A stretch of 64,000 bases of DNA from NCBI GenBank assembly GCA_021786315.1, contig JAJYNN010000002.1, positions 31,370-95,369 on the forward strand, written 5' to 3'. Made by a program: the position numbers and the translations under genes. This DNA comes from a bacterium. Its GTDB lineage: Bacteria > Patescibacteriota > Microgenomatia > Daviesbacterales > UBA10151. The first letter of the stretch is position 1. Every line of letters starts with the position of its first letter. The notes beneath the pieces are model-generated. The model was not told the origin of the DNA. It did no database searches and saw only the letters and a program-made list of their open reading frames with translations. Shown piece by piece: positions 10,661 to 63,216 of the stretch.

Positions 10661-10678
10661 CTCAGGTATAATACAGCT

Positions 10679-13120: not shown

Positions 13121-13870
13121 TTATTCTTGGGATTCTTCAGCGGGTTTCTCTTCCCCACCTTCAGTAGAAGTTTCACCTTCAGTGGCTTCACCCTCAGCTC
13201 CTTCTTCACCTTCAGCAGGAGCCTCGCCTTCAGCAACCTCAGCAGCAGCTTCAGCCTCCGCGGCTTCTTCTTCCATTAACTTTTGGGCTTCCTCAGACAC
13301 AGCATTATCAAGTTTAACAACGACTGCTTCCGGATCTGCCAAAACCGTAACTCCCTGGGGAACACTCATTTGGATAACAGTCACAGCATCGTCAATGGCT
13401 TTAAGGTTGGAAATATTAACTACCAGCTTTTCCGGAAGTTCAGTTGGCAAAGCTTCAACCTCAACCTCGCTCATCGGCTGGATAACAATCGCCTCACCGG
13501 ATTTAACCACTTCCGGTTCCTCACCCTCAAGCTCAATTGGCACCCAAACCTGAACTTTTTCATTCAAGTTAACCTGGTAAAAATCAACATGTAAAGTTGC
13601 ACCTTTTACCGGATCTACCTGGACATCACGGATTAAAACCGGGCGGACTTTCTCAGCTCCAATTTTAAGGTCAATTAAACCGGACTCACCAGCTTGGTCG
13701 TAAACTTTGGCAAAGTCTTGAGCTTTAACCGCCACGTGCTCGGTTTCAACCTTGTTTCCAAAAACGTGCGCCGGAACAAACCCCTCTTTGCGGAGCTTTT
13801 TGACTTGTTTTCCTAAAATCTCTCTTTCTTCAGCTTTAAGTGGAATTCTATCCATAATTTTTGTCCTCAA
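13121..13870 (-). CDS. rplY: ribosomal protein bL25 (Ctc form) with acidic E/A-rich C-terminal tail
   Basis: RxxxGKxxxKxLRKEGxVPAxVFG N-terminal block; probable true start is the ATG at ~13856 (MDRIPLKA). Confidence 0.85.
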   Translation of the reverse strand: MRTKIMDRIPLKAEEREILGKQVKKLRKEGFVPAHVFGNKVETEHVAVKAQDFAKVYDQAGESGLIDLKIGAEKVRPVLIRDVQVDPVKGATLHVDFYQVNLNEKVQVWVPIELEGEEPEVVKSGEAIVIQPMSEVEVEALPTELPEKLVVNISNLKAIDDAVTVIQMSVPQGVTVLADPEAVVVKLDNAVSEEAQKLMEEEAAEAEAAAEVAEGEAPAEGEEGAEGEATEGETSTEGGEEKPAEESQE

Positions 13871-13914
13871 AAATTACAAGATCGTTCGCCGCAGGCGAAG
13901 GTAGCCTTATAATT
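13870..13914 (+). promoter_or_regulatory. conserved intergenic motif family A (copy 3) between rplY and the epimerase-DUF4012 gene
   Basis: AAAATTACAAGATCG-TTCGCCGCAGGCGAA-GGTAGCCTTATAAT; points away from rplY. Confidence 0.5.
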
Positions 13915-23544: not shown

Positions 23545-23589
23545 TTTAGGGCTACCTTTTGACTTTGTCAAAACGATCCTGTAATTTTT
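23545..23589 (-). promoter_or_regulatory. conserved intergenic motif family A (copy 4; reverse orientation) immediately upstream of dnaN
   Basis: Reverse-complement reads AAAAATTACAGGATCG-TTTTGACAAAGTCAAAA-GGTAGCCCTAAATT. Confidence 0.5.
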
Positions 23590-24703
23590 GAAGACAAAAA
23601 TTATGAAATTTTCAATCCTACAACAAGATTTAATGCCGGCTTTATCCGCAGTTGCCCGTTCATCCGGAGTCCGGGCCCAATTACCTGTTCTAAGTAATAT
23701 ACTTTTACAAACAGAAGCAGGTAGGCTTAAACTTTCAGCCACTAACTTAGAGGTTGGGGTGGTAAAGTATGTCAAGGCGGAGATAGTTGAGGAAGGCGAG
23801 GTAACGGTTCCCGCCAAGACTTTGGTTGAGGTAGTGGCAAATTTATCCGGAGAAAAAATCGAGTTTTCCACAGCCTCCGATATTCTGGAAGTGGTTACTC
23901 CCAGTTTTTCCTCTAAGATTTCCGGTATTTCAGCCAGCGAATTTCCCACCATTCCTTTAACAGGTAAAGAGGCGGTGGTGATTGAGGCGCCGTTAATTTC
24001 TAAGTCGTTACCTCAGGTAGTATTTTCAGCAGCTGTAGATGACGGCCGGCCGATATTGACCGGAATTTTAACCGAGATTAAGGATGGGAATTTACGGTTA
24101 GTGGCCACGGATGGATATAGGCTGGCTCATAAAATAGTTCCAACCCCTAAAGATATCTCTTTTAAAGCCTTGGTTCCCCGAAGGACTTTTGAAGAAATAG
24201 TCAGGCTTATCTCTGAGGAGGAGACAGACCAGGTTAAGATTTCAGTTTCCGACGATCAAAACCAGGTGGTTTTTAGTTTTGGGAATACCGAATTTTCTTC
24301 CAGGTTGATTGAGGGGCAGTTTCCGGCATGGGAAAAGATTATTCCTTCTGAGCCCAAAGCCCGGGTTGTGGTTGATAAAAATGAAATCCTGAAGGCGGTT
24401 AAATTAGCCTCGGTATTTGCCAGGAATGAAGCTAATATAGTGAAACTGCAAAACTTACCCGGAAAGTTACTACTGACTTCCGAGGCTAAAGAGGTGGGTC
24501 AGCAAAAGAAAGAAGTTGAGGCTCAGGTTGAAGGGGAAGAGGTGCAAATTGCTTTCAATACTAAATTTTTACTGGATGTTTTATCAGCTATAAGTTCTTC
24601 CCAGGTAATTATTGAGCTCTCCGGTAATCTTTCGGCAGCATTGTTTAAACCAATGGGGGATGAGGGGTTGGAATATATTGTGATGCCGGTAAACTTAAGC
24701 TAG
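23588..24703 (+). CDS. dnaN: DNA polymerase III beta sliding clamp
   Basis: Three-domain beta-clamp pattern; follows dnaA and oriC. Confidence 0.92.
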   Translation: MKTKIMKFSILQQDLMPALSAVARSSGVRAQLPVLSNILLQTEAGRLKLSATNLEVGVVKYVKAEIVEEGEVTVPAKTLVEVVANLSGEKIEFSTASDILEVVTPSFSSKISGISASEFPTIPLTGKEAVVIEAPLISKSLPQVVFSAAVDDGRPILTGILTEIKDGNLRLVATDGYRLAHKIVPTPKDISFKALVPRRTFEEIVRLISEEETDQVKISVSDDQNQVVFSFGNTEFSSRLIEGQFPAWEKIIPSEPKARVVVDKNEILKAVKLASVFARNEANIVKLQNLPGKLLLTSEAKEVGQQKKEVEAQVEGEEVQIAFNTKFLLDVLSAISSSQVIIELSGNLSAALFKPMGDEGLEYIVMPVNLS

Positions 24704-35230: not shown

Positions 35231-35235
35231 TTTAA

Positions 35236-37047
35236 TTAAGGTAAGATTCGCCCTATTCTACTCCGAGTATCTGTGGGAGTAGGGCCAAGTCCCATTTTCT
35301 CTTTTTCTTTCGCTTCTGTATAAGCTTTATTTTGTTGTTTAAATCTGGAGGTCAGTTTTCCGTAGAAAGCTTGGCTTACACCCATACCACCCATGAAGCC
35401 TCCAATTATTGATTTGCCAAATAATGGATTATCTTTGATTCCAAAGGCACCCTTAACTGCGTCAGGTATAGAAGGAACCATAAGCAGAACACCATAAGCT
35501 AGAAGTAGACGTAAAAAGTCAGGGCTTAAATTTCCCAAAAGAGGAATGGTACCTGTAAAATTACCCGGATTGCCGGTTACGTTAAAGGGTGCACTCTGCC
35601 ATTTTAAAAGATAAGCAGCAAAAAGTAGTGCGGCAAAAACCGCTGGAAAGACCATCAAATTTCCTAACATATTTTTAATCCAGCTTCCCAAAACGTTTTG
35701 TCTTCCGGGAATACTACCTAAGAGGAACTGGAGGGGAGCTGTGACTGTATTTATTAAAATTGATATGTAAGATGTGATTAATCCGAATACGGTTTTAAAC
35801 ATGGCGATGAGTAATGCAATTATTAAGATAATATATAGCAAAAGCCCAACAATTCCTCCGGCAATATTAAAGTGGGTTAATGCAAAAACTATTCCGCTGC
35901 CGCCGATACATCCAACTGTTTTTTTAGGGTCAAGTGAAAACCCGATACCGAATGGTTTGATATCAATACTAGTAAGCCCTCCAAGCGGGCCCTCATCAAT
36001 AATTTTTTGTCCTAAATAACATCCCACTGCAGCAGAGGTTAGATCGATCATAGTGCCCAAAGGTCCTTGTTTGATGTAATCTAGTGTTTGGGCTGTAGTC
36101 CCGGCAAGTTCCCAGGGGGCATTACTGGTGGGGGAGCTATATTGGCCTACTATGAACGGGCTGAACAGACTAAAAATGTTTTGGCCGCTGAGCAAATTCT
36201 CGGTAGTATTTTTTTGCCCATCAATGATTCCTTCTTGTTCAAAAACTTTGCCTACCAAGTGTACTGAAACAAAAGTGACATCCACTACTAAGGCAGCTAA
36301 AAAGTAGCTGAAAGTAATTAGTATTAAACCGACGACTAGTCCTGGAAGAGCGCTTTGGGCGGAAATAACAGTTTGGGGGTTAATTTTTTGACGGAACATA
36401 ATCATAAAACCTATTACCAGGAAAATAAAAATCATCGCCAGATAGGAGATATTTCTGGCTAGTTTCCATAAAGGTAGGATGGGTGACAAAACATCATTCC
36501 CTGATCCTCTAACCTGGGCGTAAGCAGGTGTAATAATTCCCATACCCTTCCCTGCATCTGCAATATAATCTGCAGCAATTAACGGAGGGGTGGCATAAAG
36601 ATAAGAAATAAAGTAAGTCATTGAGCCGATTGCTCCTCCTGAGGAGATAAATGTTTCCTTGGGAACCATAGTTCCGGCTTTTGGTCCTTGAGTTTCCCTT
36701 TGATATTCGATACAGGGCTGACCAATGATAGAGGATCCTTCCGCTAAACAGCTAAAGGTATGAATTAGATTTATTACTACCATGTTGGCATATTGAGGTG
36801 ATTGATTGGAAAAATTAAGGGAAGTTGGTTGGACAAGTGCAGCGTCTGGAGTGGCAGGTTGAGTTTGGGCTTGAACTGAACTCGCGAAAAACCAGGAACT
36901 GACTATGAGCAGGAAGCTAACCAGGAAACGGGCAGGCATTACATCCAGAATATAATAGTTGGAGTCGAGTTTGCAACCATTAAGGACAGATTGGAGCAAA
37001 GCCGATACAAAATGTAAGGATATTAGGTACTCCGGTGAAAGCGGCAA
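35236..37047 (-). CDS. VirB6/TrbL-like polytopic membrane protein
   Basis: 603 aa; signal-like N-terminus, at least 8 hydrophobic helices, Gly-rich C-terminal tail; last gene of the pilin operon. Confidence 0.5.
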   Translation of the reverse strand: MPLSPEYLISLHFVSALLQSVLNGCKLDSNYYILDVMPARFLVSFLLIVSSWFFASSVQAQTQPATPDAALVQPTSLNFSNQSPQYANMVVINLIHTFSCLAEGSSIIGQPCIEYQRETQGPKAGTMVPKETFISSGGAIGSMTYFISYLYATPPLIAADYIADAGKGMGIITPAYAQVRGSGNDVLSPILPLWKLARNISYLAMIFIFLVIGFMIMFRQKINPQTVISAQSALPGLVVGLILITFSYFLAALVVDVTFVSVHLVGKVFEQEGIIDGQKNTTENLLSGQNIFSLFSPFIVGQYSSPTSNAPWELAGTTAQTLDYIKQGPLGTMIDLTSAAVGCYLGQKIIDEGPLGGLTSIDIKPFGIGFSLDPKKTVGCIGGSGIVFALTHFNIAGGIVGLLLYIILIIALLIAMFKTVFGLITSYISILINTVTAPLQFLLGSIPGRQNVLGSWIKNMLGNLMVFPAVFAALLFAAYLLKWQSAPFNVTGNPGNFTGTIPLLGNLSPDFLRLLLAYGVLLMVPSIPDAVKGAFGIKDNPLFGKSIIGGFMGGMGVSQAFYGKLTSRFKQQNKAYTEAKEKEKMGLGPTPTDTRSRIGRILP

Positions 37048-37279
37048 TTAGTTTCAGTATTAGCCAGGCAAGGATTAAAAATAGTATCCCTAAAAGTGCC
37101 CAGGTGATAGTGCCGGAGGCAGAACTTAAGGCTTTGGATTCTCCTCCGGAGGTAATCATCCTGATACCGGCCCAAGTCAGCATAATGATGACTAAAATAA
37201 AAGCCACACCCACTGAAAGATTAATAATTCTTTGGATTAGCTCTTGAAGTTGTGTAACACCGGCAGGTCCAGGCCCCAT
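36980..37279 (-). CDS. pilin-like small membrane protein, paralog P5 (VirB2/TrbC-like topology)
   Basis: Two hydrophobic helices; ITSGGESKALSSASGTITWALLGILFLILA motif shared with P1-P4. Confidence 0.5.
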   Translation of the reverse strand: MGPGPAGVTQLQELIQRIINLSVGVAFILVIIMLTWAGIRMITSGGESKALSSASGTITWALLGILFLILAWLILKLIAAFTGVPNILTFCIGFAPICP

Positions 37280-37326
37280 GTAACTAAAGGGTACTAAAAA
37301 AAGGGTAGTGAATCAATAACGGAGAT

Positions 37327-37767
37327 TTATCTGACTGGTGTGGGAGTAACTATGATTGGAGCGGTGGATGTCAGAGAGGGGATAGTTAAGTTGCCCAGGA
37401 TGTTAATGCCTAAGATATTGCCGACTACAAAGACTATCACAAAAGCAAATGCCAAGATTGCGAGGCCGATTAAAGCGTTGGTAATTCTCTTCCGGGCATT
37501 GCCTACAGCCTCCTTGTCACCACCGGAGGTGATCCATTGGAAGGCTCCGATAATCAGCATCACCAATACTGCTAAAGCGGCAACAACGAAAATAATTCTG
37601 ATAAGGTTGGTAAAAAGTACCCCGACAATACCATTGGTGGGGGTGATGGCGGTTCCCGGGGGAGGAGCAACGTTGACTGTAATGTCCGCAAAAGCTTTGC
37701 TGGTGATTGCGAGTGAGCCTAAAGTAGTGAGTAAAGCAGCAACTCTTTTCATGACTGATCTCATCAT
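37327..37767 (-). CDS. pilin-like small membrane protein, paralog P4
   Basis: Signal-like N-terminus; QWITSGGDKEAVGNARKRITNALIGLAIL motif; ~48 nt near-identical to P3. Confidence 0.6.
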   Translation of the reverse strand: MMRSVMKRVAALLTTLGSLAITSKAFADITVNVAPPPGTAITPTNGIVGVLFTNLIRIIFVVAALAVLVMLIIGAFQWITSGGDKEAVGNARKRITNALIGLAILAFAFVIVFVVGNILGINILGNLTIPSLTSTAPIIVTPTPVR

Positions 37768-37801
37768 ATGCCGATTATTATTTACTTGTCAAGCACGGCC
37801 T

Positions 37802-38203
37802 TTATTTAGTTAGCTTGACTTGTCCTTCGAAGAATTGGAATCCGGTAATATCGCCAATGACATTAATAATGACCCAGGCTAAAGCCAAAAGAACTATTCC
37901 AATAATTGCCCAAGTGAGCCTTCTCCGGGCGTTGCCTACAGCCTCCTTGTCACCGCCGGAGGTGATCCATTGAAGACCGCTGATTAAAACCATAAAGATA
38001 AAGATTATCCCTGCCGCCACATAAATTAATTGGATTGTATTGTTTAATACCGTGCTAATGCCTTTACCTCCCGGTCCTAAAGCGGCAATTGGGGTAGGGG
38101 CTTCAACTTTTCCGATGACATCGTCCACACTTTGGGCAGCAGCCAGACTAACTTGTTTTAAAAATATGGCGATACCCAAAAGAGGGACAAGAATTTTTTT
38201 CAT
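37802..38203 (-). CDS. pilin-like small membrane protein, paralog P3
   Basis: Signal peptide plus QWITSGGDKEAVGNARRRLTWAIIGIVLL motif. Confidence 0.6.
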   Translation of the reverse strand: MKKILVPLLGIAIFLKQVSLAAAQSVDDVIGKVEAPTPIAALGPGGKGISTVLNNTIQLIYVAAGIIFIFMVLISGLQWITSGGDKEAVGNARRRLTWAIIGIVLLALAWVIINVIGDITGFQFFEGQVKLTK

Positions 38204-38529
38204 GGGTTTGTTTTAATGACCTCGAATCCTTTCAGGCCTAAAAACTCCGGCACAAATTGGATAATTAAAAACATCAGCATTAATAGTATAAAACCTATAA
38301 TAGCATGGATAATCATGTTCCGGGCACCAGAAACGGCATTTTTATCGCCCCCGGAGAGGACAAACCTAAAGGCTCCAATTAAAAAGTAGATAATGACGGC
38401 CAGTGCAGCAATGGCAAATCCCGGGCCGACTAATGCACCCATGACACTGGCTAGTGAATCATAGTTGCCAAAGCCATAAGCATCTTTTAAATCAACACTG
38501 GCAGCATAAGCAGTCGGAATGAAATTCAT
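38200..38529 (-). CDS. pilin-like small membrane protein, paralog P2 (the track ORF 38200..38640 is probably N-terminally over-extended)
   Basis: VLSGGDKNAVSGARNMIIHAIIGFILL motif; start ATG overlaps the stop of P1 (ATGA). Confidence 0.5.
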   Translation of the reverse strand: MNFIPTAYAASVDLKDAYGFGNYDSLASVMGALVGPGFAIAALAVIIYFLIGAFRFVLSGGDKNAVSGARNMIIHAIIGFILLMLMFLIIQFVPEFLGLKGFEVIKTNP

Positions 38530-38864
38530 GGCGTTGTTACGGTTGTTATCGGTATATCTTTTGGTTTGGCCAGATCCTCTTTTAAGAATTGGCTGATAGC
38601 AAAAGCTAGAATCAGTATAACAAAACCAACGATTGACCAAATGATCCTTTTACGGGCATAGGACAAACCTTCCTTACTACCTCCGGCAAAGATGTATTGG
38701 AAAACTCCCCAGGCAAACCAAAAAAGCATTAAAAATCCTCCGACCATTAACGCCAGGTTCAAAAAAGCGGAGATTACTCCTCCTAAGGTAGGTTCTTTAA
38801 TGGCAAAACCCGCCCCGGTTTTTATTGGATCAGCATCAAAAATTGCTTTAAGTCCTGGAATCAT
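38526..38864 (-). CDS. pilin-like small membrane protein, paralog P1
   Basis: IFAGGSKEGLSYARKRIIWSIVGFVIL motif; start overlaps the stop of the upstream adhesin-like gene. Confidence 0.5.
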   Translation of the reverse strand: MIPGLKAIFDADPIKTGAGFAIKEPTLGGVISAFLNLALMVGGFLMLFWFAWGVFQYIFAGGSKEGLSYARKRIIWSIVGFVILILAFAISQFLKEDLAKPKDIPITTVTTP

Positions 38865-40318
38865 GGTTTAAACCCCGGTATTTGTAGTATATCAACACCA
38901 ATAACTCTAAGAAGCATGATAGCTAAAAGTAGAAAAAGTAGCCCAATAGCGGCGTTGACAAACTGATCCTGAGCTCTTTTTAGGTTATCTGGATTCCCAC
39001 CCGAAATAATCCATTGAATTGCCCCAAATATCATTAGCAGTAAAGCAATACCCCCACCAATACCAGCTGCCACTTTAACCAGGCTTTTAACTAAAACAGA
39101 GGGGTCAGTAGGAATACAGCCAACAGAAGTGGAAATCCCTCCTCCTGTAACACCGGCTTGAACATCACATGGATCACCTGTGGCTTTACTGCAACTAGAT
39201 CCTGAGCAATTAAGGGTAGTGGCGGTAGGAACCACAGTTGTGGGTCTCGGCCCTTGGTATTTTTGGACAGTAAACTGAGTGGCAGGACATGCTTCATTTC
39301 CGTTTTGATCATAAAGTTTTAGTGTTGCTGAGTAACCTTCTGAAATTCCTTTGCCGACTACCATTTGGAAAATTTGGCCGTTAGGTCCTGAATTTAGATT
39401 ATCAGCAATAGTGGTGGTTGTTCCTGAATTTATGGAATCAAGTCTAAAATTACTATTTTTAGGAAGGTTTGTAGCGGTGAAGGAAATATTGTCTTGTACT
39501 GTTGGTTGGGAAGGATTAATCAAACAGGTTGGTTGGCGGGTTATCTTTACGGCCCGATAAGTGAAGGTTGTAGAATAGGAACAGGTTAAACCCGCAGTCC
39601 CAAGAGATATTGAACGACCGTTTTTAACGGTTGCACAAATCTTCTTTTCGCCAATCTTTTTAAATCTGTCTCCATCATCACCAGGATTTAAAGAGATGGG
39701 GGTGTTGCTGCTGGAAGGAACTGTTGCCTCTTGGACAGAGAAATGATCTCCTTCCCACCAGAAAAGATAAGCGTTTCCTGGGTTAGCGTTAATCAAAAGG
39801 ACTTGTGGTGTTTCACCTAACTCCAGTTCTTGGATAACAGGTTCTAGTTGGACAGTACTGCCGCCTTGTTGCTGAACTTCGAATGAAGCTAATGCTACAA
39901 CATTGGGGTTACTACTTGGATCTCCTCCGCAGTCACTAACTTGAGTTGCAGCACATACTTTGGCGTACCATGCACCCAAGTTATTTCTTCCTATAGAGCC
40001 TTGAAATAAGTTGATACTGGCGGTAATTGTATGTTCGTCCGTCGGCTGGACGTCATGAACGATATTAAAATAGTTGGCGTAAAGGCCTACATTATTTTGG
40101 GCGGATTGTGGATATAGGATGACTTTATGGTTGGTTGCAGTAATAAATGATGAACACTCGGAGCTGGTTGTGATGGTCATTGAATTTCGGTAATCCGGAT
40201 CAGTAATTATTGAAGGAGTGGCAGTATAGCTACAGGCAGCAAAAGCATTTTTAGGGGTAAAAAGCTGAGCTAAGACTATAACTACGAAGAAAGACAATAA
40301 AGTTAAGAATTTAGGCAT
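38861..40318 (-). CDS. large secreted protein with C-terminal pilin-like domain (candidate minor pilin/tip adhesin)
   Basis: Signal peptide, ~400-aa Cys-containing beta-rich extracellular region, C-terminus IISGGNPDNLKRAQDQFVNAAIGLLFLLLAI matching the P1-P5 motif. Confidence 0.5.
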   Translation of the reverse strand: MPKFLTLLSFFVVIVLAQLFTPKNAFAACSYTATPSIITDPDYRNSMTITTSSECSSFITATNHKVILYPQSAQNNVGLYANYFNIVHDVQPTDEHTITASINLFQGSIGRNNLGAWYAKVCAATQVSDCGGDPSSNPNVVALASFEVQQQGGSTVQLEPVIQELELGETPQVLLINANPGNAYLFWWEGDHFSVQEATVPSSSNTPISLNPGDDGDRFKKIGEKKICATVKNGRSISLGTAGLTCSYSTTFTYRAVKITRQPTCLINPSQPTVQDNISFTATNLPKNSNFRLDSINSGTTTTIADNLNSGPNGQIFQMVVGKGISEGYSATLKLYDQNGNEACPATQFTVQKYQGPRPTTVVPTATTLNCSGSSCSKATGDPCDVQAGVTGGGISTSVGCIPTDPSVLVKSLVKVAAGIGGGIALLLMIFGAIQWIISGGNPDNLKRAQDQFVNAAIGLLFLLLAIMLLRVIGVDILQIPGFKP

Positions 40319-47734: not shown

Positions 47735-47806
47735 GCCCTCGTAGGCTAATGGATAGACCACGAGATTGCGGATCTTGATATGTGGGTTCGATTCCCGCCG
47801 AGGGCA
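47735..47806 (+). tRNA. tRNA-Arg (anticodon read as GCG; D-stem imperfect)
   Basis: Cloverleaf: acceptor GCCCTCG/CGAGGGC, anticodon stem CGAGA/TCTTG, loop TTGCGGA, T-arm GTGGG-TTCGATT-CCCGC. Confidence 0.55.
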
Positions 47807-47929
47807 CAAACAAACAAAGTGTGGTTTGTGCACGAAGGGGAACAGGATCTTTGACGAAGTCAAAGTAGCCCTAATCCCGCCGAGCGCGCCAAGTTTTGGA
47901 GGTGGGGTTGCATAATCCGCCAGGTGACG

Positions 47930-47975
47930 GATTGCGATAGTTCCACTGCTTCGCAGTGTGTAACTATCTAATGCG
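47930..47975. repeat. 38-nt hairpin repeat, copy 1 (GATAGTTCCACTGCTTCGCAGTGTGTAACTATCTAATG)
   Basis: Inverted repeat GATAGTT...AACTATC with an inner CACTGC/GCAGTG stem; a second copy at ~48120-48157 differs by 2 nt. Confidence 0.6.
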
Positions 47976-47988
47976 GCCTAGATAATTT

Positions 47989-48074
47989 GGAGGGTTGTCC
48001 GAGTGGTTTATGGAGATTGTTTCGAAAACAATTGGTGCGAAAGCGCCGCGCAGGTTCGAATCCTGCACCCTCCG
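47989..48074 (+). tRNA. tRNA-Ser(CGA)
   Basis: Type II tRNA; anticodon stem ATTGT/ACAAT, loop TTCGAAA; T-arm GCAGG-TTCGAAT-CCTGC. Confidence 0.75.
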
Positions 48075-49715: not shown

Positions 49716-49853
49716 ATCAGCGGAGAGGGAGGGATGATTCTCTCCTCGCTTTGCTCGGAGTTGAACCCGCTTCCTACTGTGTAGAGCGCAGATTCTCGGT
49801 CCCATTCCCTCAATATTTAAAAAACTCAACCATAAGGTTGGTTCTTTTAAATG

Positions 49854-50081: not shown

Positions 50082-51857
50082 ATGGATGATTTAGACCTCA
50101 TTAAACAAAAGATCAATATCGTTGATCTGATTTCCGAATATCTCCCTTTAAAAAAAGCCGGTGTTAACTTTAAGGCACCTTGTCCCTTTCATCAAGAAAA
50201 AACTCCTTCCTTTATGGTTTCCCCTGACCGGGGTATTTGGCATTGTTTTGGCTGCCAAAAAGGCGGGGACATCTTTAAGTTTTTAATGGAAAGGGAAGGG
50301 GTGGATTTTGCTGAAGCTTTAGAAATTTTGGCCAAAAGAGCCGGAGTGACTTTAAAAAGAAAAAACAGCAAAGAAAAAGACAAAAGGCAAAGACTTTTTG
50401 ACGCTAACTTAAAGGCAGTCCAATTTTACCACCATCTTTTAGTAAAACATCCTTTAGGTAAGGTGGCCTTAGAGTATCTGAAAAAGCGGGGATTAACTGA
50501 CCAAACTATTGAGGAATTTAATTTAGGGTATGCCCCCAACTCCTGGGAATCTTTGTCCGGTTTTTTAAAAAAACGTGGTTTTACTACCCAGGAGTTAATT
50601 GATTCCGGACTAGGGGTGGCCTCTAAAAGCGGCTGTTATGACCGTTTCCGGGGGCGGATTATGTTTCCCTTAATAGATATTAAGAGCCAGGTTATTGCTT
50701 TTGCCGGCCGGGTTTTAGACAAGAGTGAACCGAAGTACATTAATACCCCGCAAACAGCAATTTTTGATAAAAGCAATTTCCTTTTCGGGTTAAACCTTTC
50801 CAAAGGAGAGGTGAAGATTAAAAAACAGCTGATTTTAACCGAAGGGGAGATGGATATGATTATGTCTTACCAATCCGGGGTTAAAAATGTGGTGGCTTCC
50901 AAAGGGACCGCTTTAACCCAGGGGCAAGTTGAGCTTATTAAAAGACATGCCGACAACTTACTTTTATGTTTTGATATGGATTTGGCTGGGGATAGCGCCT
51001 CCCGGCGGGGGATTGAGATGGCTGACGCTGCCGGTTTAAACATTAAAGTTATCGAGATTCCGGAAGGTAAAGATCCGGCGGAGTTGGCCAGTAAAAATAT
51101 CGAACGTTGGCAGGAAGCGGTAGATCGCGCCGAGCCGATTTATGACTATTACTTAAGGTCGGTTTCTGCCCGTTACAACCCCAAAACTGCCGAGGGCAAA
51201 AGGAAAATTGCGGAAGAGATGATCCCGGTTTTAGGGAAGATTACTGATTCTTTTACCCGTGAGCACTATATCCAAAAGTTGGCGGCATTAATTTCTACCT
51301 CTGATGAGTTGTTAAGGAAAGAAATTGGACGCCAGGGGAATGCTCTTGCCCCTAAATTTACCACAGTTGTTAACTTGCCGGTCGATAAAACCCGGGCTAA
51401 TATCCGTTCCCGCCGCGATCTTTTGGAGGAATACTTAATGACTTTGCTTCTGAAAATTCCCTCCGATATTACCTTTGTCCCAAGTTTCCCGGAAACCCTG
51501 TTGTTGTCTGAAAATTTCCGCTCGATATATGTGATGTTAGTTCTCTATCTTGACAATATTTCATTTAAGGGCGAAAGTTTTAATATTGGCGATTTTGTTA
51601 AAACTTTACCTCCCGAACTTATACCTATAGTTGACAGGTTGTATTTATCCGAGATTGATGATAAATTATCAAGCTCGAGGGTCTGGGAAAAGGAAATTGA
51701 GACAGTTGTGGCAGAATTAAAGAAGGCTTTGATTAAGGCCTCCCTGGAAAAACTATCAGCTGAGATCAAATCAGCTCAAGCTTTTGACAAGATGGAGCTA
51801 CTGGAAACTTTAAACAGGCGTTTTCGGGACCTATCGGTGAAGTTAAAGAATTTATAA
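50082..51857 (+). CDS. dnaG: DNA primase
   Basis: N-terminal zinc ribbon CPFHQEKTPSF...CFGCQKGGD; TOPRIM domain (EGEMD, DxDxAG). Confidence 0.92.
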   Translation: MDDLDLIKQKINIVDLISEYLPLKKAGVNFKAPCPFHQEKTPSFMVSPDRGIWHCFGCQKGGDIFKFLMEREGVDFAEALEILAKRAGVTLKRKNSKEKDKRQRLFDANLKAVQFYHHLLVKHPLGKVALEYLKKRGLTDQTIEEFNLGYAPNSWESLSGFLKKRGFTTQELIDSGLGVASKSGCYDRFRGRIMFPLIDIKSQVIAFAGRVLDKSEPKYINTPQTAIFDKSNFLFGLNLSKGEVKIKKQLILTEGEMDMIMSYQSGVKNVVASKGTALTQGQVELIKRHADNLLLCFDMDLAGDSASRRGIEMADAAGLNIKVIEIPEGKDPAELASKNIERWQEAVDRAEPIYDYYLRSVSARYNPKTAEGKRKIAEEMIPVLGKITDSFTREHYIQKLAALISTSDELLRKEIGRQGNALAPKFTTVVNLPVDKTRANIRSRRDLLEEYLMTLLLKIPSDITFVPSFPETLLLSENFRSIYVMLVLYLDNISFKGESFNIGDFVKTLPPELIPIVDRLYLSEIDDKLSSSRVWEKEIETVVAELKKALIKASLEKLSAEIKSAQAFDKMELLETLNRRFRDLSVKLKNL

Positions 51858-51875
51858 TTTATGAACGAAGTGAAG

Positions 51876-51921
51876 AAATTACAGGATCGTTTTAACAAAG
51901 TTAAAAGGTAGCCCTATAAAT
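51876..51921 (+). promoter_or_regulatory. conserved intergenic motif family A (copy 1) abutting the rpoD start codon
   Basis: GAAATTACAGGATCG-TTTTAACAAAGTTAAAA-GGTAGCCCTATAAAT immediately followed by ATG. Confidence 0.55.
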
Positions 51922-57764: not shown

Positions 57765-60107
57765 ATGGAAGCAAACCAGGTTGCAGCAGGTACTGATTTT
57801 TTTAATTTGTTTCTCCTTATCGGATTGCTGGTTATTCTTCTTTTAGGAGTTGTTTTAGGGCTGTTATATTTTAGCCGGTATTTTATCGCCATGTACCGTG
57901 ACCGGGACCGGGAAAAACGTTCCTTAAAGTCGGTTTTAATCCAGGTTAATGTTCCCCGGGACAACGAGATTAAGATCGATGCCATGGAGCAATTTTTTGC
58001 CTCCCTTTATGCCATCAAAAAAAACCAGGGGTTTATGAACTTAAAGCCTCAGGCCCAGATTTCCTTTGAAATAGTCGCGCTGCATGAATCTATCAGGTTT
58101 TTTATCTGTGTCCATGAATCGTTACGGGATTTGGTGGAAAAACAGATTCACGGAGCGTATCCTGACGCTGAAATTAAGGTTGTTCCGGAATACAATATTT
58201 TCTCGGAATCCGGTCAGACGGCTTATGTTATGTACAAGCTCAAAGGGGCAGACTACATGCCGATTAAAACCTACCGTGATTTGCCGACCGATCCGCTTTC
58301 CGCTTTGACTTCCGCTTTGGCCAAGATGCAGGAGGATGAGGGGGCGGTAGTCCAGATGATAATTTCCCCGGCGGACGGGAAGTGGAAGGACTTTGGAAAA
58401 AAGTGGCTTAAAAAAGAAAAGGATCCGGGAAAACCTGAGGCTCCCAAGGCTCCGCCTGACGCCAAACAACTGGAGGCGGTGGAAAACAAAATTTCCAAAC
58501 AAGGGTTTAATGTGTCTTTAAGGATTGTCACTTCTTCCACTTCCAAAGACAGCGCCAAAGCCCATTTGTCCAATATTAAAGCGGCTTTTGAGCAATTTGA
58601 CGGGCCATACAACAGCTTTTCGGGAATGAAGATCCGTTCCGAAAAAGGGTTCATGACCGATTTTATCTACCGCTATATGCCGATGTTTTCCAAAACTCCG
58701 GTTTTGACCGCCGACGAGCTGGCATCGGTTTACCATTTCCCCAATAAATCAGTGACCACGCCGCACATTTCCTGGCTGCCGGCCCGTTCCGCCCCGGCTT
58801 CAGAAAAAATTCCTACGAGCGGTTTGTACCTTGGGAAATCCGTTTTCCGGGGGACGGAGAGGCCGGTGTTTATTTCCGAGGAGGACCGGGCGCGCCACAT
58901 GTATATCATCGGAAGAACCGGTACCGGAAAAACTACCTTGCTCAAGACCCTGATGCTGCAGGATATTTTATCTGGCAAAGGTTTGTGTTTTATCGACCCC
59001 CACGGCGATGCGGCGGAGGAGCTGCTCTCGCTTATTCCGCCCCACCGGGCCCAGGATGTAATTTATTTTGATCCCGGAGACACCCAAAGGCCGTTCGGGA
59101 TGAATATGCTGGATGCGGAAACTGAGGATGAAAAACACTTTGTGGTGGCCAACATCTTAGGACTTATGTATAAGCTGTTTGACCCCAACAAGACCGGTAT
59201 TATTGGGCCGCGGTTTGAGCACGGTGTCCGCAACGCCATGTTGACTGTCATGTCGGTGCCGGGCAATACCTTTGTGGAAGTCATGCGGATTATGCAGGAT
59301 CCGGAGTTTGTCCGTGAGCTTTTGCCGCACGTGAACGATCCAATTGTTAAACGCTACTGGACCGACCAGATTGCCCACACCCAGGATTTCCATAAATCCG
59401 AGGTTTTGGATTACACCGTTTCCAAATTCGGCCGCTTTGTCACTAACCGGATGATGAGAAATATCATCGGCCAGTCAAAGTCTTCCTTTAACCTCCGCCA
59501 GATTATGGACGAGGGGAAAATTTTGATCGTCAACCTTTCCAAGGGAAAGATGGGGGAGGAGAACTCCAACTTCCTGGGATTAATTTTAGTGCCGAAGATC
59601 TTAGCCGCCGCCATGTCCCGGGCCAATATGCCGGAAGAGCAGCGCCGGCCGTTCTACCTTTACGTTGATGAGTTTCAAAACTTTGCCACCGATACCTTTG
59701 CCACTATTCTTTCTGAGGCCAGAAAATACCGCCTGAACTTAACGGTAGCCAACCAATTTATCGGCCAGATGCCGGAGGATATTAAATCCGCCATTTTCGG
59801 TAACGTTGGTACCACCATTGCTTACCGGGTGGGTGTGCCCGATGCCCAGTTCCTCCAGCATGAGTTTTCTCCGGTGTTTACTGAACAGGATCTGGTCAAT
59901 ATTGAGGCTTGGCATGTTTACATCAAGACCCAGGTAAAAGGTGAACCAATTCCGCCTTTTTCAATGTTTGTGAAACCTAACTTTGATGCCTGGAATGCCT
60001 TAAAACGGCCGGATATAGCCCAAGCCATTAAGGAGCTTTCCCGGCTCACTTATGGGCGGGATGTAGCGGAAGTGGAAGCAGAGATCAACCAAAGAGCCAA
60101 ACTTTAA
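57765..60107 (+). CDS. VirD4/TraG/TraD-like (FtsK-HerA superfamily) ATPase with N-terminal TM anchor, candidate T4SS coupling protein
   Basis: N-terminal TM helix; Walker A IIGRTGTGKTTLL, FIDPHGD, Walker B YLYVDEFQNF, TVANQFIGQM block. Confidence 0.55.
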   Translation: MEANQVAAGTDFFNLFLLIGLLVILLLGVVLGLLYFSRYFIAMYRDRDREKRSLKSVLIQVNVPRDNEIKIDAMEQFFASLYAIKKNQGFMNLKPQAQISFEIVALHESIRFFICVHESLRDLVEKQIHGAYPDAEIKVVPEYNIFSESGQTAYVMYKLKGADYMPIKTYRDLPTDPLSALTSALAKMQEDEGAVVQMIISPADGKWKDFGKKWLKKEKDPGKPEAPKAPPDAKQLEAVENKISKQGFNVSLRIVTSSTSKDSAKAHLSNIKAAFEQFDGPYNSFSGMKIRSEKGFMTDFIYRYMPMFSKTPVLTADELASVYHFPNKSVTTPHISWLPARSAPASEKIPTSGLYLGKSVFRGTERPVFISEEDRARHMYIIGRTGTGKTTLLKTLMLQDILSGKGLCFIDPHGDAAEELLSLIPPHRAQDVIYFDPGDTQRPFGMNMLDAETEDEKHFVVANILGLMYKLFDPNKTGIIGPRFEHGVRNAMLTVMSVPGNTFVEVMRIMQDPEFVRELLPHVNDPIVKRYWTDQIAHTQDFHKSEVLDYTVSKFGRFVTNRMMRNIIGQSKSSFNLRQIMDEGKILIVNLSKGKMGEENSNFLGLILVPKILAAAMSRANMPEEQRRPFYLYVDEFQNFATDTFATILSEARKYRLNLTVANQFIGQMPEDIKSAIFGNVGTTIAYRVGVPDAQFLQHEFSPVFTEQDLVNIEAWHVYIKTQVKGEPIPPFSMFVKPNFDAWNALKRPDIAQAIKELSRLTYGRDVAEVEAEINQRAKL

Positions 60108-61584: not shown

Positions 61585-61660
61585 ACAATTGGTTCCAGGT
61601 TCGTTCATAACAAGGTTATGCTTACTTGTTAAGGTCCAGGCAGCTCTACTAAATTAAAGT
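61585..61660 (+). repeat. partial duplicate of the tRNA-Ile 3' half with a ~31-nt insertion in the T-loop
   Basis: TGGTTCCAGGTTCG-[TTCATAACAAGGTTATGCTTACTTGTTAAGG]-TCCAGGCAGCTCTAC parallels TGGTTCCTGGTTCGAGTCCAGGCAGCTCCACCA. Confidence 0.55.
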
Positions 61661-61699: not shown

Positions 61700-62566
61700 T
61701 TATAATTCTTCTAACTTGATCTTATCCTCGGAAGTTCGGGAGGGGACAAAGGCTAAATATCTTTCCGTAGTGGAAACCCGTTTGTGACCGGCAAGCTTGG
61801 AAACAATAGAGAGCGTTAACCCGGACTCCAGTTGGTGTACCACCCAGGTATGTCTTAAATCATTAACTTTAGCCCCTTTGATTCCGGCCAACCTAAAGTA
61901 CCTGTCGATGGCAGTCCTGATGTTTCTGACAAGCAGGGGACGGCCGGTTTTGGTGACAAATAAGGCTTTGCTTTGGGTCTTGGGTCTGATTTCGAGGTAT
62001 CTTTTTACAGCCTCAATAGCAGATTTAGTTAAAGGCACAGTTCTTTCTATAGAACCTTCTTCGGGACGGATATAGATGTGGGGGTTTTCTCCCTCAAGAC
62101 GGACATCTTCTACAGTGAGCTTGGCTAATTCACCGATTCTGATACCGGTTTGAAGAAGTAATTCGATAACAGCTGACATCCGGATATCGCCCCGGGCAGC
62201 GTCCCTTAAAGCCCGGTATTCCAGCTTAGAGAGCATCCTGGGAGGCTTGTTTTCAAACGTGGGGTGCTCCAGACCAACAGCCGGATCGGATTCAATAATA
62301 TTGGAGGTTTTTAAGAACTTAAAGAAGGTTTTGGTGGAGTTGGTTTTACGGGAAACAGATTTTGGGGTATAGTTTTCTTTGCCAAGTTTACGCATGAAAT
62401 CCCGTAAATCTTCGGTAGTGACTTGTGAGGGGTCTTCAATACCCTTAGAATTAAGGAAGTCTACCAGCTGCTCAATATCCTTACCGTACGCAAGGATAGT
62501 CGCAGAGGAGCGGCTTCGGCCTTTAAGATGCCCGATAAATTGTTGTCTGGCGTCTGATAATTTCAT
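61700..62566 (-). CDS. tyrosine recombinase (XerC/XerD-like; phage-integrase family)
   Basis: N-terminal SAM-like domain; catalytic R...HxxR...Y (LLQTGIRIGELAKL, LRHTWVVHQL, HKRVSTTERY). Confidence 0.8.
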   Translation of the reverse strand: MKLSDARQQFIGHLKGRSRSSATILAYGKDIEQLVDFLNSKGIEDPSQVTTEDLRDFMRKLGKENYTPKSVSRKTNSTKTFFKFLKTSNIIESDPAVGLEHPTFENKPPRMLSKLEYRALRDAARGDIRMSAVIELLLQTGIRIGELAKLTVEDVRLEGENPHIYIRPEEGSIERTVPLTKSAIEAVKRYLEIRPKTQSKALFVTKTGRPLLVRNIRTAIDRYFRLAGIKGAKVNDLRHTWVVHQLESGLTLSIVSKLAGHKRVSTTERYLAFVPSRTSEDKIKLEEL

Positions 62567-62576
62567 AAAGAATTAT

Positions 62577-62623
62577 GAAATTACAGGATCGTTCCAACGT
62601 AGTTGGAAGGTAGCCCTATAAAT
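62577..62623 (+). promoter_or_regulatory. conserved intergenic motif family A (copy 2) upstream of ftsB
   Basis: GAAATTACAGGATCG-TTCCAACGTAGTTGGAA-GGTAGCCCTATAAAT. Confidence 0.55.
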
Positions 62624-62677
62624 TCATAACAATGTAGTAATTTTAGCATACTACAGGATAGTTGTAAAGAGAAACTT

Positions 62678-63031: not shown

Positions 63032-63035
63032 AAAG

Positions 63036-63060
63036 CCCCCTAGGGGCTTAACTTTTGTTG
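63036..63060 (+). terminator. Rho-independent terminator downstream of ftsB
   Basis: AAAAGCCCCCTAGGGGCTT hairpin followed by a T-run. Confidence 0.6.
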
Positions 63061-63216
63061 CGGGGGTTGGATTAAGTCTACTTTGACTTACGTCAAAGAT
63101 CTTGTAATCTCGCTTCGCTCGATTATCGAACCTGCTTAGAACTGTGTTCTGCGCATAGCTCTCCCAATACCCCCATATAACCGAAAAAGCCCCTCACAAA
63201 GAGGGACTTTTTCAAT

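What the first reader, a model, noticed from the sequence alone, without database searches (positions are those of the whole stretch)
51876..51921. Conserved ~46-nt intergenic motif (family A) with a covarying central hairpin; four copies
The conserved flanks AAATTACAGGATCG and GGTAGCCCTATAAAT enclose a 6-7-bp stem with a 4-nt loop. The stem sequence differs in every copy yet stays self-complementary: TTTTAAC/GTTAAAA at 51876-51921, TTCCAAC/GTTGGAA at 62577-62623, TTCGCC/GGCGAA at 13870-13914, and TTTTGAC/GTCAAAA at 23545-23589 (reverse orientation). Compensatory changes argue for selection on structure, either an RNA hairpin or a protein-bound DNA cruciform. Two copies sit directly upstream of rpoD and ftsB, with the TATAAAT touching or near the start codon. 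The other two point away from the nearest start codon (rplY, dnaN). The element is therefore not simply an orientation-fixed promoter.
Basis: seen in the sequence. Interest (0 to 1): 0.65.

Follow-up and report, generated by a model that had tools for sequence, protein, structure and literature searches.

The report
Small hairpin insertion element in Daviesbacteria
The motif is real and its hairpin genuinely covaries. It is best read as a small insertion-derived repeat, similar to REP or MITE elements, that has spread through the spacers of one Candidatus Daviesbacteria genome rather than as a promoter or a known RNA.

Summary
A covariance model found two diverged copies (47841-47873 +, 63073-63110 -), and public scans found 14 more distinct copies, almost all in Candidatus Daviesbacteria (CPR).

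The core is (A)AATTACA[G/A]GATCGTT, 4-6 variable base pairs, a 3-nt loop, then AAGGTAGCC[C/T]TA. Stem pairing is 99.5% versus 85% in shuffles. An outer AGG/CCT helix also covaries. Most copies carry a second upstream hairpin (A).

- **Inserted DNA:** close relatives lack it at three syntenic sites. Removing 51855-51916 restores their dnaG-rpoD junction.
- **Placement:** copies occur in either orientation, in tandem, convergent and divergent spacers. Seven sit in the T-loop of a tRNA 3' fragment.
- **Gene starts:** some copies are flanked by 5-26-nt direct repeats that rebuild an interrupted start (xer, lepA).
- **What it is not:** no Rfam family, no U-tract, and a sigma-70-like match at only one copy.
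- **Mobilising enzyme:** the 59 window ORFs scanned include no transposase, and xer, the only tyrosine recombinase seen, is the vertically inherited host gene.

Best reading: a non-autonomous, hairpin-dependent mobile element, possibly co-opted by the host. The enzyme and the active strand are unknown.

The parts
51855..51916 (+). Copy 1, full element. Hairpin A is TAATTT(51855-51860)...AAATTA(51876-51881), with an inner T-GA-AC-GAA-GT-GA-A module. The core is 51876-51916. Hairpin B is 51890-51906 (TTTTAAC AAA GTTAAAA). The outer helix is AGG 51883-51885 with CCT 51913-51915.
   Evidence: Sequence. Covariance-model hit at E=1.3e-14. Folds. Removing 51855-51916 leaves AAGAATTTA|TAAATATGGCA, the same layout as the 2-nt dnaG-rpoD spacer of the closest relative L029 and the 5-6-nt spacers of L021 and L022.
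62558..62618 (+). Copy 2. Hairpin A is an 11-bp perfect stem, 62558-62568 with 62573-62583. Its left arm now encodes the xer start (ATG AAA TTA on the minus strand). The core is 62578-62618 and hairpin B is 62592-62608 (TTCCAAC GTA GTTGGAA).
   Evidence: and 69 (inverted repeat I8). Relatives have 52-71-nt xer-ftsB spacers without the motif. A fourth relative, L025, has a 187-nt spacer, also without it.
62619..62629 (+). Direct-repeat partner of 62558-68: TAAATTCATAA against TAATTTCATAA. It holds the displaced original xer start. Read on the minus strand and joined to 62557, it gives ATG AAT TTA|TCA GAC GCC = MNLSDA, compared with MINLSDA in relatives.
13855..13909 (+). Copy 3. Hairpin A is TAATTTTTG(13855-13863), loop TCCT, CAAAAATTA(13868-13876). 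On the minus strand its loop carries the rplY Shine-Dalgarno sequence and it abuts the ATG at 13855-13853. The core is 13871-13909, of the ACAAG...CCTTA variant. Hairpin B is 13885-13899 (TTCGCC GCA GGCGAA).
   Evidence: (E=5.9e-10). The flanking repeat ATAATTT is shown.
23547..23603 (-). Copy 4, reverse orientation. The core is 23547-23587 and hairpin B is 23557-23573. Hairpin A is 23582-23603, enclosing the dnaN Shine-Dalgarno sequence (GAAGA) and ending at the dnaN ATG (23603). It starts 3 nt after the stop codon of the Hjc-like endonuclease gene.
   Evidence: (E=1.1e-14).
47841..47873 (+). Diverged copy: ACAGGATC-TTTGAC-GAA-GTCAAA-GTAGCCCTA. It lies 33 nt after tRNA-Arg(gcg). It is followed directly (47874-47891) by ATCCCGCCGAGCGCGCCA, a displaced tRNA-Arg 3' fragment.
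   Evidence: (26.3 bits, E=5e-4). In relatives tRNA-Arg and tRNA-Ser are only 4-15 nt apart, against 181 nt here.
63073..63125 (-). Diverged full element. Hairpin A is TAATC-GA-GC-GAA-GC-GA-GATTA (63125-63105). It is followed by C-AAGATC-TTTGAC-GTAA-GTCAAA-GTAGACTTA. The element sits in the T-loop (GGTTCGA^ATCC) of a tRNA-fMet 3' fragment.
   Evidence: 23 bits, E=0.003; repeat D5. Removing it restores the 7-nt T-loop TTCGAAT.
63056..63072 (-). The copy of the tRNA-fMet 3' end (ATCCAACCCCCGCAACA) that abuts the element. A canonical terminator follows at 63033-63049.

Best explanation
The motif is the conserved core of a small (about 41-65 nt), non-autonomous, hairpin-based repeat element specific to Candidatus Daviesbacteria. 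It works like REP, REPIN or MITE-type elements.

**Structure.** The full unit has two parts:
- Hairpin A: TAATTT(C)-GA-NN-loop-NN-GA-(G)AAATTA.
- The core: C-AGG-ATCG-[TT + variable stem + triloop + AA]-GGTAGC-CCT-A.

**Shown here.**
- It is inserted DNA with sharp boundaries, present or absent between close relatives.
- It lands only in spacers or at the very ends of genes, in either orientation.
- Targets are A/T-rich TAAWT-like sites at gene starts, or the T-loop of tRNA 3' fragments.
- At some sites it is flanked by direct repeats that rebuild the interrupted gene start.
- Stem variants form sub-families shared between unrelated loci.

**Inferred.**
- The hairpins plus the invariant single-stranded flanks, including GTAG, are the recognition structure for a trans-acting enzyme that copies or moves the element.
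- That substrate is probably folded single-stranded DNA. This would explain why stems may change only by compensatory pairs while the flanks stay fixed.
- Surviving copies are those that keep neighbouring genes expressed. Some supply a Shine-Dalgarno sequence or a start codon.
- At least one old copy (murJ-lepA) appears to be kept by selection, so secondary host use is likely.

The enzyme is not identified.
For: **Real and structured**
- Covariance-model E-values of 1e-14 to 1e-9 for 18 copies.
- Covariation of hairpin B and of the outer helix.
- Hairpin A is predicted in most copies, with compensatory variants: TAATTC/GAATTA in L005, TAATCGAGAAG/CTTCTCGATTA in L002 against TAATCGAAAAG/CTTTTCGATTA in L013, and ATTTTTTGC/GCAAAAAAT in L011.

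**Presence or absence at syntenic sites**
- The dnaG-rpoD spacer is 2-6 nt in L029, L021 and L022, against 64 nt here. L018 and L020 have other sequence there.
- The xer-ftsB spacer is 52-71 nt without the motif in three relatives, against 111 nt here.
- The tRNA-Arg/tRNA-Ser spacer is 4-15 nt in relatives, against 181 nt here.
- The reverse case also occurs. L010 has a copy between the Polysacc_synt and RNase H-like genes, which are 9 nt apart in the window.
- The covariance model finds no full copy in about 180 kb of relatives' DNA, against 6 copies in this 64 kb.

**Exact boundaries**
- Excising TAAT...CCYTA restores the dnaG stop/rpoD start junction.
- It also restores 7-nt T-loops at 63110, L003 and L004.

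**Flanking direct repeats**
- 11 nt at copy 2, 7 nt at copy 3, 26 nt at L002 and L013, 14 nt at L009.

**Placement and distribution**
- All kinds of gene context and both orientations.
- Stem sub-families across loci: TTCGCC in copy 3, L002, L013 and L005; TTTCAGC in L007, L009 and L015; TTCACC in L001 and L004.
- Restricted to Daviesbacteria MAGs and metagenome contigs, and absent from viral contigs.

**Resemblance to known elements**
- The design matches published GTAG-tagged REPs: 6-9-bp stems, 2-3-nt loops, sub-families with complementary stem changes, and, in families GTAG-1 and GTAG-2, unpaired bases between stem and tag (PMC3733652).
Against: - No transposase, HUH/RAYT or element-borne recombinase was found among the 59 window ORFs scanned.
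- The one tyrosine recombinase, next to copy 2, is the vertically inherited Xer of the lineage.
- There are no terminal inverted repeats.
- The flanking repeats vary in length (5-26 nt) and are absent at T-loop sites. This fits neither DDE nor HUH transposition cleanly.
- Copy number in other genomes is low: 1-2 strict matches per representative genome.
- The murJ-lepA copy is 97% identical (38/39) between two species whose flanking coding DNA aligns at about 60-65%, an estimate lowered by an insertion in the L002 LepA. That points to selection in place, meaning a host function, or to homogenisation between copies, rather than a decaying selfish insert.
- No movement has been observed directly.
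Confidence: 0.55

Rival explanations
1. It is a host cis-regulatory leader acting in the minus sense. As RNA, UAGGGCUACC-hairpin B-CGAUCCUG followed by hairpin A lies in the 5' UTR. Hairpin A holds the Shine-Dalgarno sequence in its loop and the start codon at its foot. A protein bound to the conserved flanks would then tune translation or mRNA stability.
For: - In roughly half of the 18 full copies the reverse complement lies 5-100 nt upstream of a start codon (9 scored; L015 and L002's orthologue L013 follow the same pattern). The genes include rplY, dnaN, xer, lepA (in two species), rplE and an RNase H-like gene.
- Hairpin A encloses the ribosome-binding site in copy 3, copy 4, L015, L010, L002 and L013.
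- In the minus sense the outer helix gains two G-U pairs, giving UAGGG/UCCUG as 5 bp.
- The core is 97% conserved at lepA across species whose flanking coding DNA aligns at about 60-65%. One arm of hairpin A lies inside lepA codons and is compensated between the species.
Against: - Eight of 20 copies face the other way. These are copy 1 and the seven tRNA T-loop copies. In them the minus sense is antisense to a tRNA or to dnaG.
- The genes form no coherent regulon.
- Orthologous genes in close relatives lack the element.
- No Rfam family matches.
Confidence: 0.2
2. It is a recombination (att-like) site, or the end of miniature integrative elements. These would be moved by a tyrosine recombinase that crosses over in tRNA T-loops, possibly using a folded single-stranded substrate as for CTX phage attP or integron attC.
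For: - Seven copies sit exactly in the T-loop of a tRNA 3' fragment that duplicates the 3' end of a complete tRNA 65-170 nt upstream. This is the classic attL/attR signature.
- The left and right T-arm halves can come from different tRNAs, as in L004.
- The imperfect palindrome with variable stem and conserved flanks resembles folded recombination sites.
- Copy 2 abuts a xer gene.
Against: - The adjacent Xer is the conserved host gene, and relatives have it without the motif.
- The 'integrated' DNA would be only 65-170 bp.
- Most copies are not at tRNAs and have different, site-specific flanking repeats. A site-specific recombinase with a fixed core would not produce those.
- The element lies inside the would-be crossover region, not beside it.
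Confidence: 0.1
3. It is a transcription terminator or a 3' mRNA-stabilising hairpin, acting in both directions.
For: - Most copies follow the 3' end of a gene or tRNA. Examples are copy 1 after dnaG, copy 3 after the 946-aa gene, copy 4 three nt after a stop codon, and L005 overlapping the rpmG stop.
- REPs are thought to act this way (PMC3733652).
Against: - There is no U-tract, and no copy is flagged as terminator-like.
- The genome has canonical terminators with U-tracts (63033-63049 and 63190-63204; L003).
- In L003 and at 63110 a canonical terminator already precedes the element.
- Four copies are in divergent promoter regions: copy 2, L007, L009 and L011.
- Stems such as TTTTAAC are very weak (-4.5 kcal/mol as DNA for the whole of copy 1).
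Confidence: 0.07
4. It is a promoter. TATAAT-like boxes at one or both ends would drive the flanking genes, with the hairpin acting as an operator.
For: - CCYTATAAT occurs at the 3' junction in copy 1, copy 2, copy 3, L007 and L015. TGTAAT occurs at the other end.
- Four copies are in divergent spacers.
Against: - The TAAAT in copies 1 and 2 is native flank.
- In copy 1 it touches the ATG, so it cannot serve rpoD.
- There is no conserved -35, and the candidate boxes are 28-30 nt apart.
- Only copy 4 gives a sigma-70-like hit, and it points away from dnaN.
- Convergent and post-tRNA copies have nothing to drive.
Confidence: 0.03

Closest known systems
GTAG-tagged REP / REPIN elements (repetitive extragenic palindromes mobilised by RAYT/TnpA-REP)
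   Same: - A short extragenic stem-loop with a 6-7-bp stem and a 3-nt loop.
- An invariant unpaired GTAG next to the stem, separated from it by unpaired bases as in families GTAG-1 and GTAG-2, with a conserved short motif on the other side.
- Sub-families that differ by complementary stem changes.
- Both orientations occur, and copies often lie just after genes (PMC3733652).
   Different: - GTAG lies 3' of the hairpin on the strand where it reads GTAG, whereas REPs carry it 5'.
- The flanks are longer and A/T-rich (12 and 10 nt).
- There is a second, obligatory-looking hairpin A.
- Copy number is low and lineage-specific.
- No RAYT is present in the window.
- Insertions go into T-loops and gene starts and can carry direct repeats.
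- The host is a CPR bacterium.
MITEs and small structured repeats such as Correia/NEMIS, RUP, BOX and ERIC
   Same: - Non-autonomous, tens of nucleotides long, and present or absent between relatives.
- Inserted close to genes, where they can supply expression signals.
- Some copies have flanking duplications.
   Different: - No terminal inverted repeats.
- No fixed-length target duplication.
- Much shorter than Correia elements (100-155 bp).
IS200/IS605-derived palindrome-associated elements (PATEs) and other substrates of HUH enzymes that act on single-stranded DNA
   Same: - Two hairpins with conserved bases at their feet.
- Precise insertion without duplication at several sites (copy 1 and the T-loop copies).
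- C-GNA-G and C-AAA-G triloops and tandem G-A pairs, features I recall as typical of stable DNA mini-hairpins such as d(GCGAAGC). This is from memory and was not tested here.
   Different: - No TnpA was found.
- No conserved target tetranucleotide beyond a 3' A on the left flank.
- Some copies do carry direct repeats.
tRNA-targeting integrative elements (attL/attR duplication of a tRNA 3' end)
   Same: A complete tRNA is followed by a displaced copy of its T-arm/acceptor 3' part, with the foreign DNA joined in the T-loop region.
   Different: - The DNA between the repeats is only 65-170 bp and carries no integrase.
- The element interrupts the T-loop itself.
- Most family members are not at tRNAs.

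Membership tests
REP (GTAG super-family) | Short extragenic palindrome with a 6-13-bp stem and a very short loop | tested here: met
   The stem is 6-8 bp and the loop 3 nt (4 nt in two copies) across 20 copies. The definition is taken from PMC3733652.
REP (GTAG super-family) | Unpaired GTAG tag at the 5' foot of the hairpin, the determinant recognised by RAYT | tested here: not met
   GTAG is invariant in all 20 copies but follows the hairpin (stem-GG-GTAG). The other strand reads CTACC-stem. That the 5' position is the RAYT determinant is from my own recollection, not from the section of PMC3733652 read here.
REP (GTAG super-family) | Sub-families with alternative complementary stem residues | tested here: met
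   Five of ten pairs change on both sides. Stem types are shared between unrelated loci.
REP (GTAG super-family) | High copy number (often more than 100 per genome), frequently as dimers | tested here: inconclusive
   There are 6 copies in this 64 kb, and only 1-2 strict matches per GTDB representative genome. No dimers were seen. The rest of the 942-kb source contig could not be fetched.
REP (GTAG super-family) | A RAYT (Y1/HUH) gene in the genome, itself flanked by REPs | tested here: inconclusive
   None was found among the 59 ORFs of the window scanned against Pfam. The remaining roughly 880 kb of the genome was not available.
MITE | Terminal inverted repeats | tested here: not met
   The ends TAATTT... 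and ...GGTAGCCCTA are not complementary.
MITE | Target-site duplication of fixed length | tested here: not met
   Repeats of 5, 7, 11, 14 and 26 nt occur at some copies, and none at the T-loop copies.
MITE | Presence/absence polymorphism with an identifiable empty site | tested here: met
   Shown for the dnaG-rpoD, xer-ftsB and tRNA-Arg/Ser spacers, and for the Polysacc_synt/RNase H spacer.
Intrinsic terminator | G+C-rich hairpin followed directly by a U-tract | tested here: not met
   No copy is flagged, while canonical terminators are detected nearby.
Sigma-70 promoter | -35 and -10 hexamers 16-18 nt apart, oriented toward a gene | tested here: not met
   Copies 1-3 give no match. Copy 4 gives one by virtue of its stem sequence, and it points away from dnaN.
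Integron attC | R''/L''-L'/R' sites with RYYYAAC...GTTRRRY, in cassette arrays next to intI | tested here: not met
   Only two stems happen to fit YYYAAC/GTTRRR. Copies are dispersed next to core genes. The neighbouring recombinase is the lineage's Xer.
Any Rfam 15 RNA family | Covariance-model match at or near the gathering score | tested here: not met
   Nothing appears at any copy, either at gathering thresholds or at E up to 10 on six loci that contain copies.
IS200/IS605-type miniature element (PATE) | Subterminal hairpins at both ends, insertion 3' of a fixed tetra- or pentanucleotide without duplication, and TnpA in the genome | tested here: inconclusive
   There are two hairpins, and insertion is duplication-free at copy 1 and the T-loop sites. 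However, the left flank shares only a terminal A (a by-eye reading of the flanks), other copies have repeats, and no TnpA is present in the window.

The most novel reading that the evidence does not exclude
The element may belong to an undescribed kind of structure-guided insertion system in CPR bacteria.

- A folded single-stranded unit of about 60 nt would be placed into hairpin loops or palindrome centres. Examples are tRNA T-loops and A/T-rich start-codon regions.
- The insertion process itself would rebuild the interrupted gene end. It would produce a direct repeat plus an inverted copy of the target, which becomes hairpin A.
- The catalyst would be a host-encoded structure-specific enzyme rather than a dedicated transposase. 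Candidates are the lone Xer, or an Hjc-like or PD-(D/E)XK nuclease.
Probability: 0.15. Interest if true: 0.8.

Novelty: new variant of a known kind. Interest (0 to 1): 0.55.

Why it matters
CPR/Patescibacteria genomes are small, streamlined and thought to be poor in classical mobile elements. My searches of the held literature found no description of this element.

- **Genome remodelling.** A hairpin-based element that has multiplied in one Daviesbacteria lineage shows that these genomes are still being reshaped at the level of spacers. It has split the dnaG-rpoD junction, rewritten the first codons of xer, supplied ribosome-binding sites to rplY and dnaN, and sits in tRNA T-loop fragments.
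- **Annotation.** It explains conserved 'intergenic motifs' that could otherwise be annotated as regulatory RNAs. It also appears to break short-read assemblies at this locus.
- **Enzymology.** If the mobilising enzyme is a host structure-specific nuclease or recombinase, it would be a new route of DNA mobility.
- **Practical use.** The variable-stem, fixed-flank design is a natural template for probing that enzyme's specificity.

Tried and rejected
- **Known RNA families.** Rfam at gathering and at permissive thresholds found only tRNAs, a tmRNA and a cobalamin riboswitch. Nothing appeared at the motif.
- **Phage origin.** There were no matches in viral contigs.
- **Promoter or terminator.** The scans do not support either.
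- **Integrase linkage.** I tested whether the recombinase next to copy 2 travels with the motif. It is the conserved host Xer, and relatives lack the motif beside it.
- **Protein coding.** The 15-nt and 17-nt hairpins shift the reading frame, so the motif is not a conserved peptide (a by-eye reading of the sequences). The uORF at lepA is locus-specific.
- **Replication-oriented signal (KOPS/Chi-like).** Orientations are +, -, +, +, +, - around an origin near 21-24 kb, so there is no polarity.
- **Strand assignment from wobble pairs.** Two support each strand, which is uninformative.
- **Fetching more of the source genome.** Two exact-protein look-ups failed. The third returned short contigs that end inside the window.
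- **DNA uptake sequence, archaeal bulge-helix-bulge intron, K-turn, self-cleaving ribozymes.** I considered these from the sequence and dropped them. The defining motifs are absent, or the copy distribution does not fit.
- **Literature.** Searches for CPR or Daviesbacteria repeat elements found nothing relevant.

Full report
**1. The observation**

The four copies are at the stated coordinates with the stated stems. Three details need correcting:
- The loop is 3 nt, closed by a C-G pair.
- The outer TT/AA of the 'stem' never varies.
- Conservation ends at CCYTA. The TAAAT after it in copies 1 and 2 is native flank.

The two-part pattern GATCG-N11-21-GGTAG occurs five times (four of them the motif copies), against 0.43 expected.

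I built a covariance model from nine ungapped copies. It scores the four copies at E = 1e-14 to 6e-10. It also finds two diverged copies:
- 47841-47873 (+): ACAGGATC-TTTGAC-GAA-GTCAAA-GTAGCCCTA.
- 63073-63110 (-): ATTACAAGATC-TTTGAC-GTAA-GTCAAA-GTAGACTTA.

**2. Distribution**

An exact-pattern scan of one genome per species found five loci. Four are in Candidatus Daviesbacteria MAGs. One is in a MAG labelled Gammaproteobacteria whose copy is identical to Daviesbacteria ones, so it is probably mis-binned. A metagenome scan gave 12 more loci and a viral scan none.

The window's proteins are 87-94% (RpoD) and 74-83% (Xer) identical to Daviesbacteria proteins. Its Xer is 100% identical to a protein on a 942,606-bp contig. 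The element is therefore lineage-restricted.

**3. Structure**

I aligned 20 copies to the model and counted pairs:

| Measure | Observed | Control |
|---|---|---|
| Cells forming a standard pair | 99.5% | 85.2% in shuffles (0/500) |
| Cells changed on both sides | 33 | 10.9 in shuffles (0/500) |
| Covariation score | 0.415 | 0.088 or less with slid partners |

One pair inside the 'conserved' flanks also covaries. ACA-G-G...CC-C-TA becomes ACA-A-G...CC-T-TA in five copies. This defines a 3-bp outer helix, AGG/CCT.

The alignment is fitted to the model, so these figures lean towards the structure. The raw sequences show the same compensations.

Upstream, most copies have a second hairpin (A) whose 3' arm is the AAATTA of the core. 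Its canonical form is TAATTT(C)-GA-NN-loop-NN-GA-(G)AAATTA, with tandem G-A pairs. This form occurs in copy 1, the 63110 copy, L001, L003, L004, L005, L008 and L012. It shows compensatory variants.

Loops are GAA, AAA, GCA, GTA, TCA or TTA, closed by C-G.

Both strands fold about equally well as DNA or RNA. Wobble pairs favour each strand twice. The acting strand and molecule are therefore unresolved.

**4. It is inserted DNA**

*dnaG-rpoD.* The closest relative (L029, RpoD 94%) has a 2-nt spacer...CTTTAAATATGGCT. L021 and L022 have 5-6 nt. L018 and L020 have unrelated spacers. Deleting window 51855-51916 (TAATTT...CCCTA) gives AAGAATTTA|TAAATATGGCA, which is exactly that layout.

*xer-ftsB.* Three relatives (L023, L024, L030) have 52-71-nt spacers without the motif, against 111 nt here. 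A fourth, L025, has a 187-nt spacer that also lacks it.
- The original xer start (ATG AAT TTA, compare MINLS in relatives) survives just right of copy 2.
- The present start (ATG AAA TTA) lies in the left arm of hairpin A.
- The element therefore entered after codon 3, and an 11-nt direct repeat rebuilt the gene.

*tRNA-Arg/tRNA-Ser.* The two genes are 4-15 nt apart in relatives and 181 nt apart here.

*The reverse case.* L010 carries a copy between genes that are 9 nt apart in the window.

The model finds no full copy in about 180 kb of relatives' DNA. It finds six in this 64 kb.

**5. Where it lands**

Copies occur in tandem (both orientations), convergent and divergent spacers.

Seven copies lie in the T-loop (TTCGA^AT) of a tRNA 3' fragment that duplicates the end of a complete tRNA 65-170 nt upstream (about 0.5 kb at L004, and no tRNA was detected near L001). 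These are 47841, 63110, L001, L003, L004, L008 and L012. Removing the element restores a 7-nt T-loop where this was checked (63110, L003, L004). In L004 the two T-arm halves derive from different tRNAs.

Other copies lie at A/T-rich TAAWT-like sites at gene starts. Direct repeats of 5-26 nt flank several of them.

At murJ-lepA, in two species, a 26-nt repeat duplicates the first nine lepA codons and differs only at synonymous sites. One arm of hairpin A lies in lepA codons 6-9 and is compensated between the species.

In copies 3 and 4 the near-identical hairpin A loop (TTGTCYTCAA) supplies the Shine-Dalgarno sequence of rplY and dnaN.

**6. What it is not**

- No Rfam family matches.
- There is no U-tract, and no copy is flagged as terminator-like, while canonical terminators exist nearby.
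- The only sigma-70-like hit is at copy 4, and it faces away from dnaN.
- The downstream genes do not form a regulon.
- The recombinase beside copy 2 is the vertically inherited Xer.
- A Pfam scan of 59 window ORFs finds no transposase.

**7. Interpretation**

The following features fit a non-autonomous, hairpin-dependent mobile element:
- sharp insertion boundaries;
- empty sites in relatives;
- free orientation;
- stem sub-families shared between loci (TTCGCC, TTTCAGC, TTCACC);
- lineage-specific amplification.

Published GTAG-tagged REPs share much of the design: 6-9-bp stems, 2-3-nt loops, complementary sub-family changes, and, in families GTAG-1 and GTAG-2, unpaired bases before the tag (PMC3733652). 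Membership fails because GTAG is on the opposite side of the hairpin. Copy number and RAYT presence could not be established. It also lacks the terminal inverted repeats and fixed duplication of a MITE.

I infer, but have not shown, that the hairpins plus fixed flanks are the recognition structure of a trans-acting enzyme. The substrate is probably folded single-stranded DNA.

Against a purely selfish reading, the lepA copy is 38/39 identical between species whose flanking coding DNA aligns at only about 60-65% (a figure lowered by an insertion in the L002 LepA). Either selection in place (host use as a leader structure) or homogenisation between copies is acting. I therefore keep a regulatory-leader rival at 0.2 and an att-site rival at 0.1.

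**8. Verdict**

The function is best described as a new REP-like variant in a CPR lineage, and the mechanism is only partly resolved.

Noticed in passing
window 63056-63185 (-), 49720-49815 (-); L024 9300-9410 (-): A conserved unit of about 130 nt lies downstream of complete tRNAs (fMet, Ser-gga) and their terminators. It consists of a module ..GAGAATCTGCGC-[covarying hairpin, ACA/GCA loop]-AAGC-RGGTTCRA, then a small hairpin insert in the T-loop, then a copy of the neighbouring tRNA's 3' end. L024 has it at the orthologous fMet site with a simpler insert (G-CTCGCC-TCA-GGCGAG-A-GTAGC). L023 and L030 have an elongator tRNA-Met there instead.
   Followed up: partly
window 61585-61650 and 62623-62635: After tRNA-Ile(tat) there is a second copy of its 3' third. 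Its T-loop is split by a different 30-nt hairpin insert (TTCATAACAAGGTTATGCTTACTTGTTAAG). The first 13 nt of that insert recur immediately right of motif copy 2.
   Followed up: partly
window 47735-47990: The native tRNA-Arg(gcg) survives only as a 3' fragment (47874-47891). A fragment resembling the 5' end of tRNA-Ser follows it, matching the tRNA-Arg/tRNA-Ser junction of L018. The functional tRNA-Arg(gcg) at 47735-47807 resembles tRNA-Arg(ccg) instead, so the tRNA cluster has been rebuilt.
   Followed up: partly
L002 2738-2819; L013 3620-3706 (-): Upstream of lepA, a 26-28-codon uORF starts with a duplicate of the LepA N-terminus (MNI[K/R]NFSII). It reads through the motif and ends in a TGA that overlaps the lepA ATG. 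The K/R difference between species is mirrored in both copies.
   Followed up: partly
window 10614-10681: Upstream of valS there is a tandem 18-nt repeat, AGATCGCAAGCTCTGCTT, twice with period 27. Each copy holds a small AAGC-TCT-GCTT hairpin. A perfect TATAAT (10667-10672) follows, only 6 nt before the ATG, so valS may be a leaderless mRNA. It scores as a weak partial match to the motif model (E=1.6).
   Followed up: no
window 23091-23543: A 150-aa protein lies between dnaA and dnaN and matches PF10107, an endonuclease related to the archaeal Holliday-junction resolvase. Its stop codon is 3 nt from motif copy 4. A structure-specific nuclease is a candidate partner for a cruciform or hairpin element.
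   Followed up: no
window about 63102 (L026-L028): Three independent short-read assemblies of this population all end at the same base, inside the diverged copy at 63073-63110. This suggests the repeat or the tRNA duplication breaks the assembly graph.
   Followed up: no
L004 2905-2945 (-); L012 9470-9510: A conserved hairpin, CAGGTTCTC...GAGGTTCTG, has an invariant G-T / T-T / T-G core and a covarying apex. It lies between a tRNA or a small gene and the motif. The wobble pairs work only on that strand, so it is probably an RNA element or an atypical terminator.
   Followed up: no
window 32191-32403 and 32792-35230: A cobalamin riboswitch (48.7 bits) lies upstream of an 812-aa ORF with no Pfam match. 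This may be an uncharacterised B12-related transporter or binding protein in a CPR genome.
   Followed up: no
window 25910-40318 and 57765-60107: These regions encode type IV secretion-like genes: TraG-like P-loop, PrgI-like, two T4SS pilin-domain proteins, and a TrwB/TraD-like coupling protein with DUF8128 in relatives.
   Followed up: no
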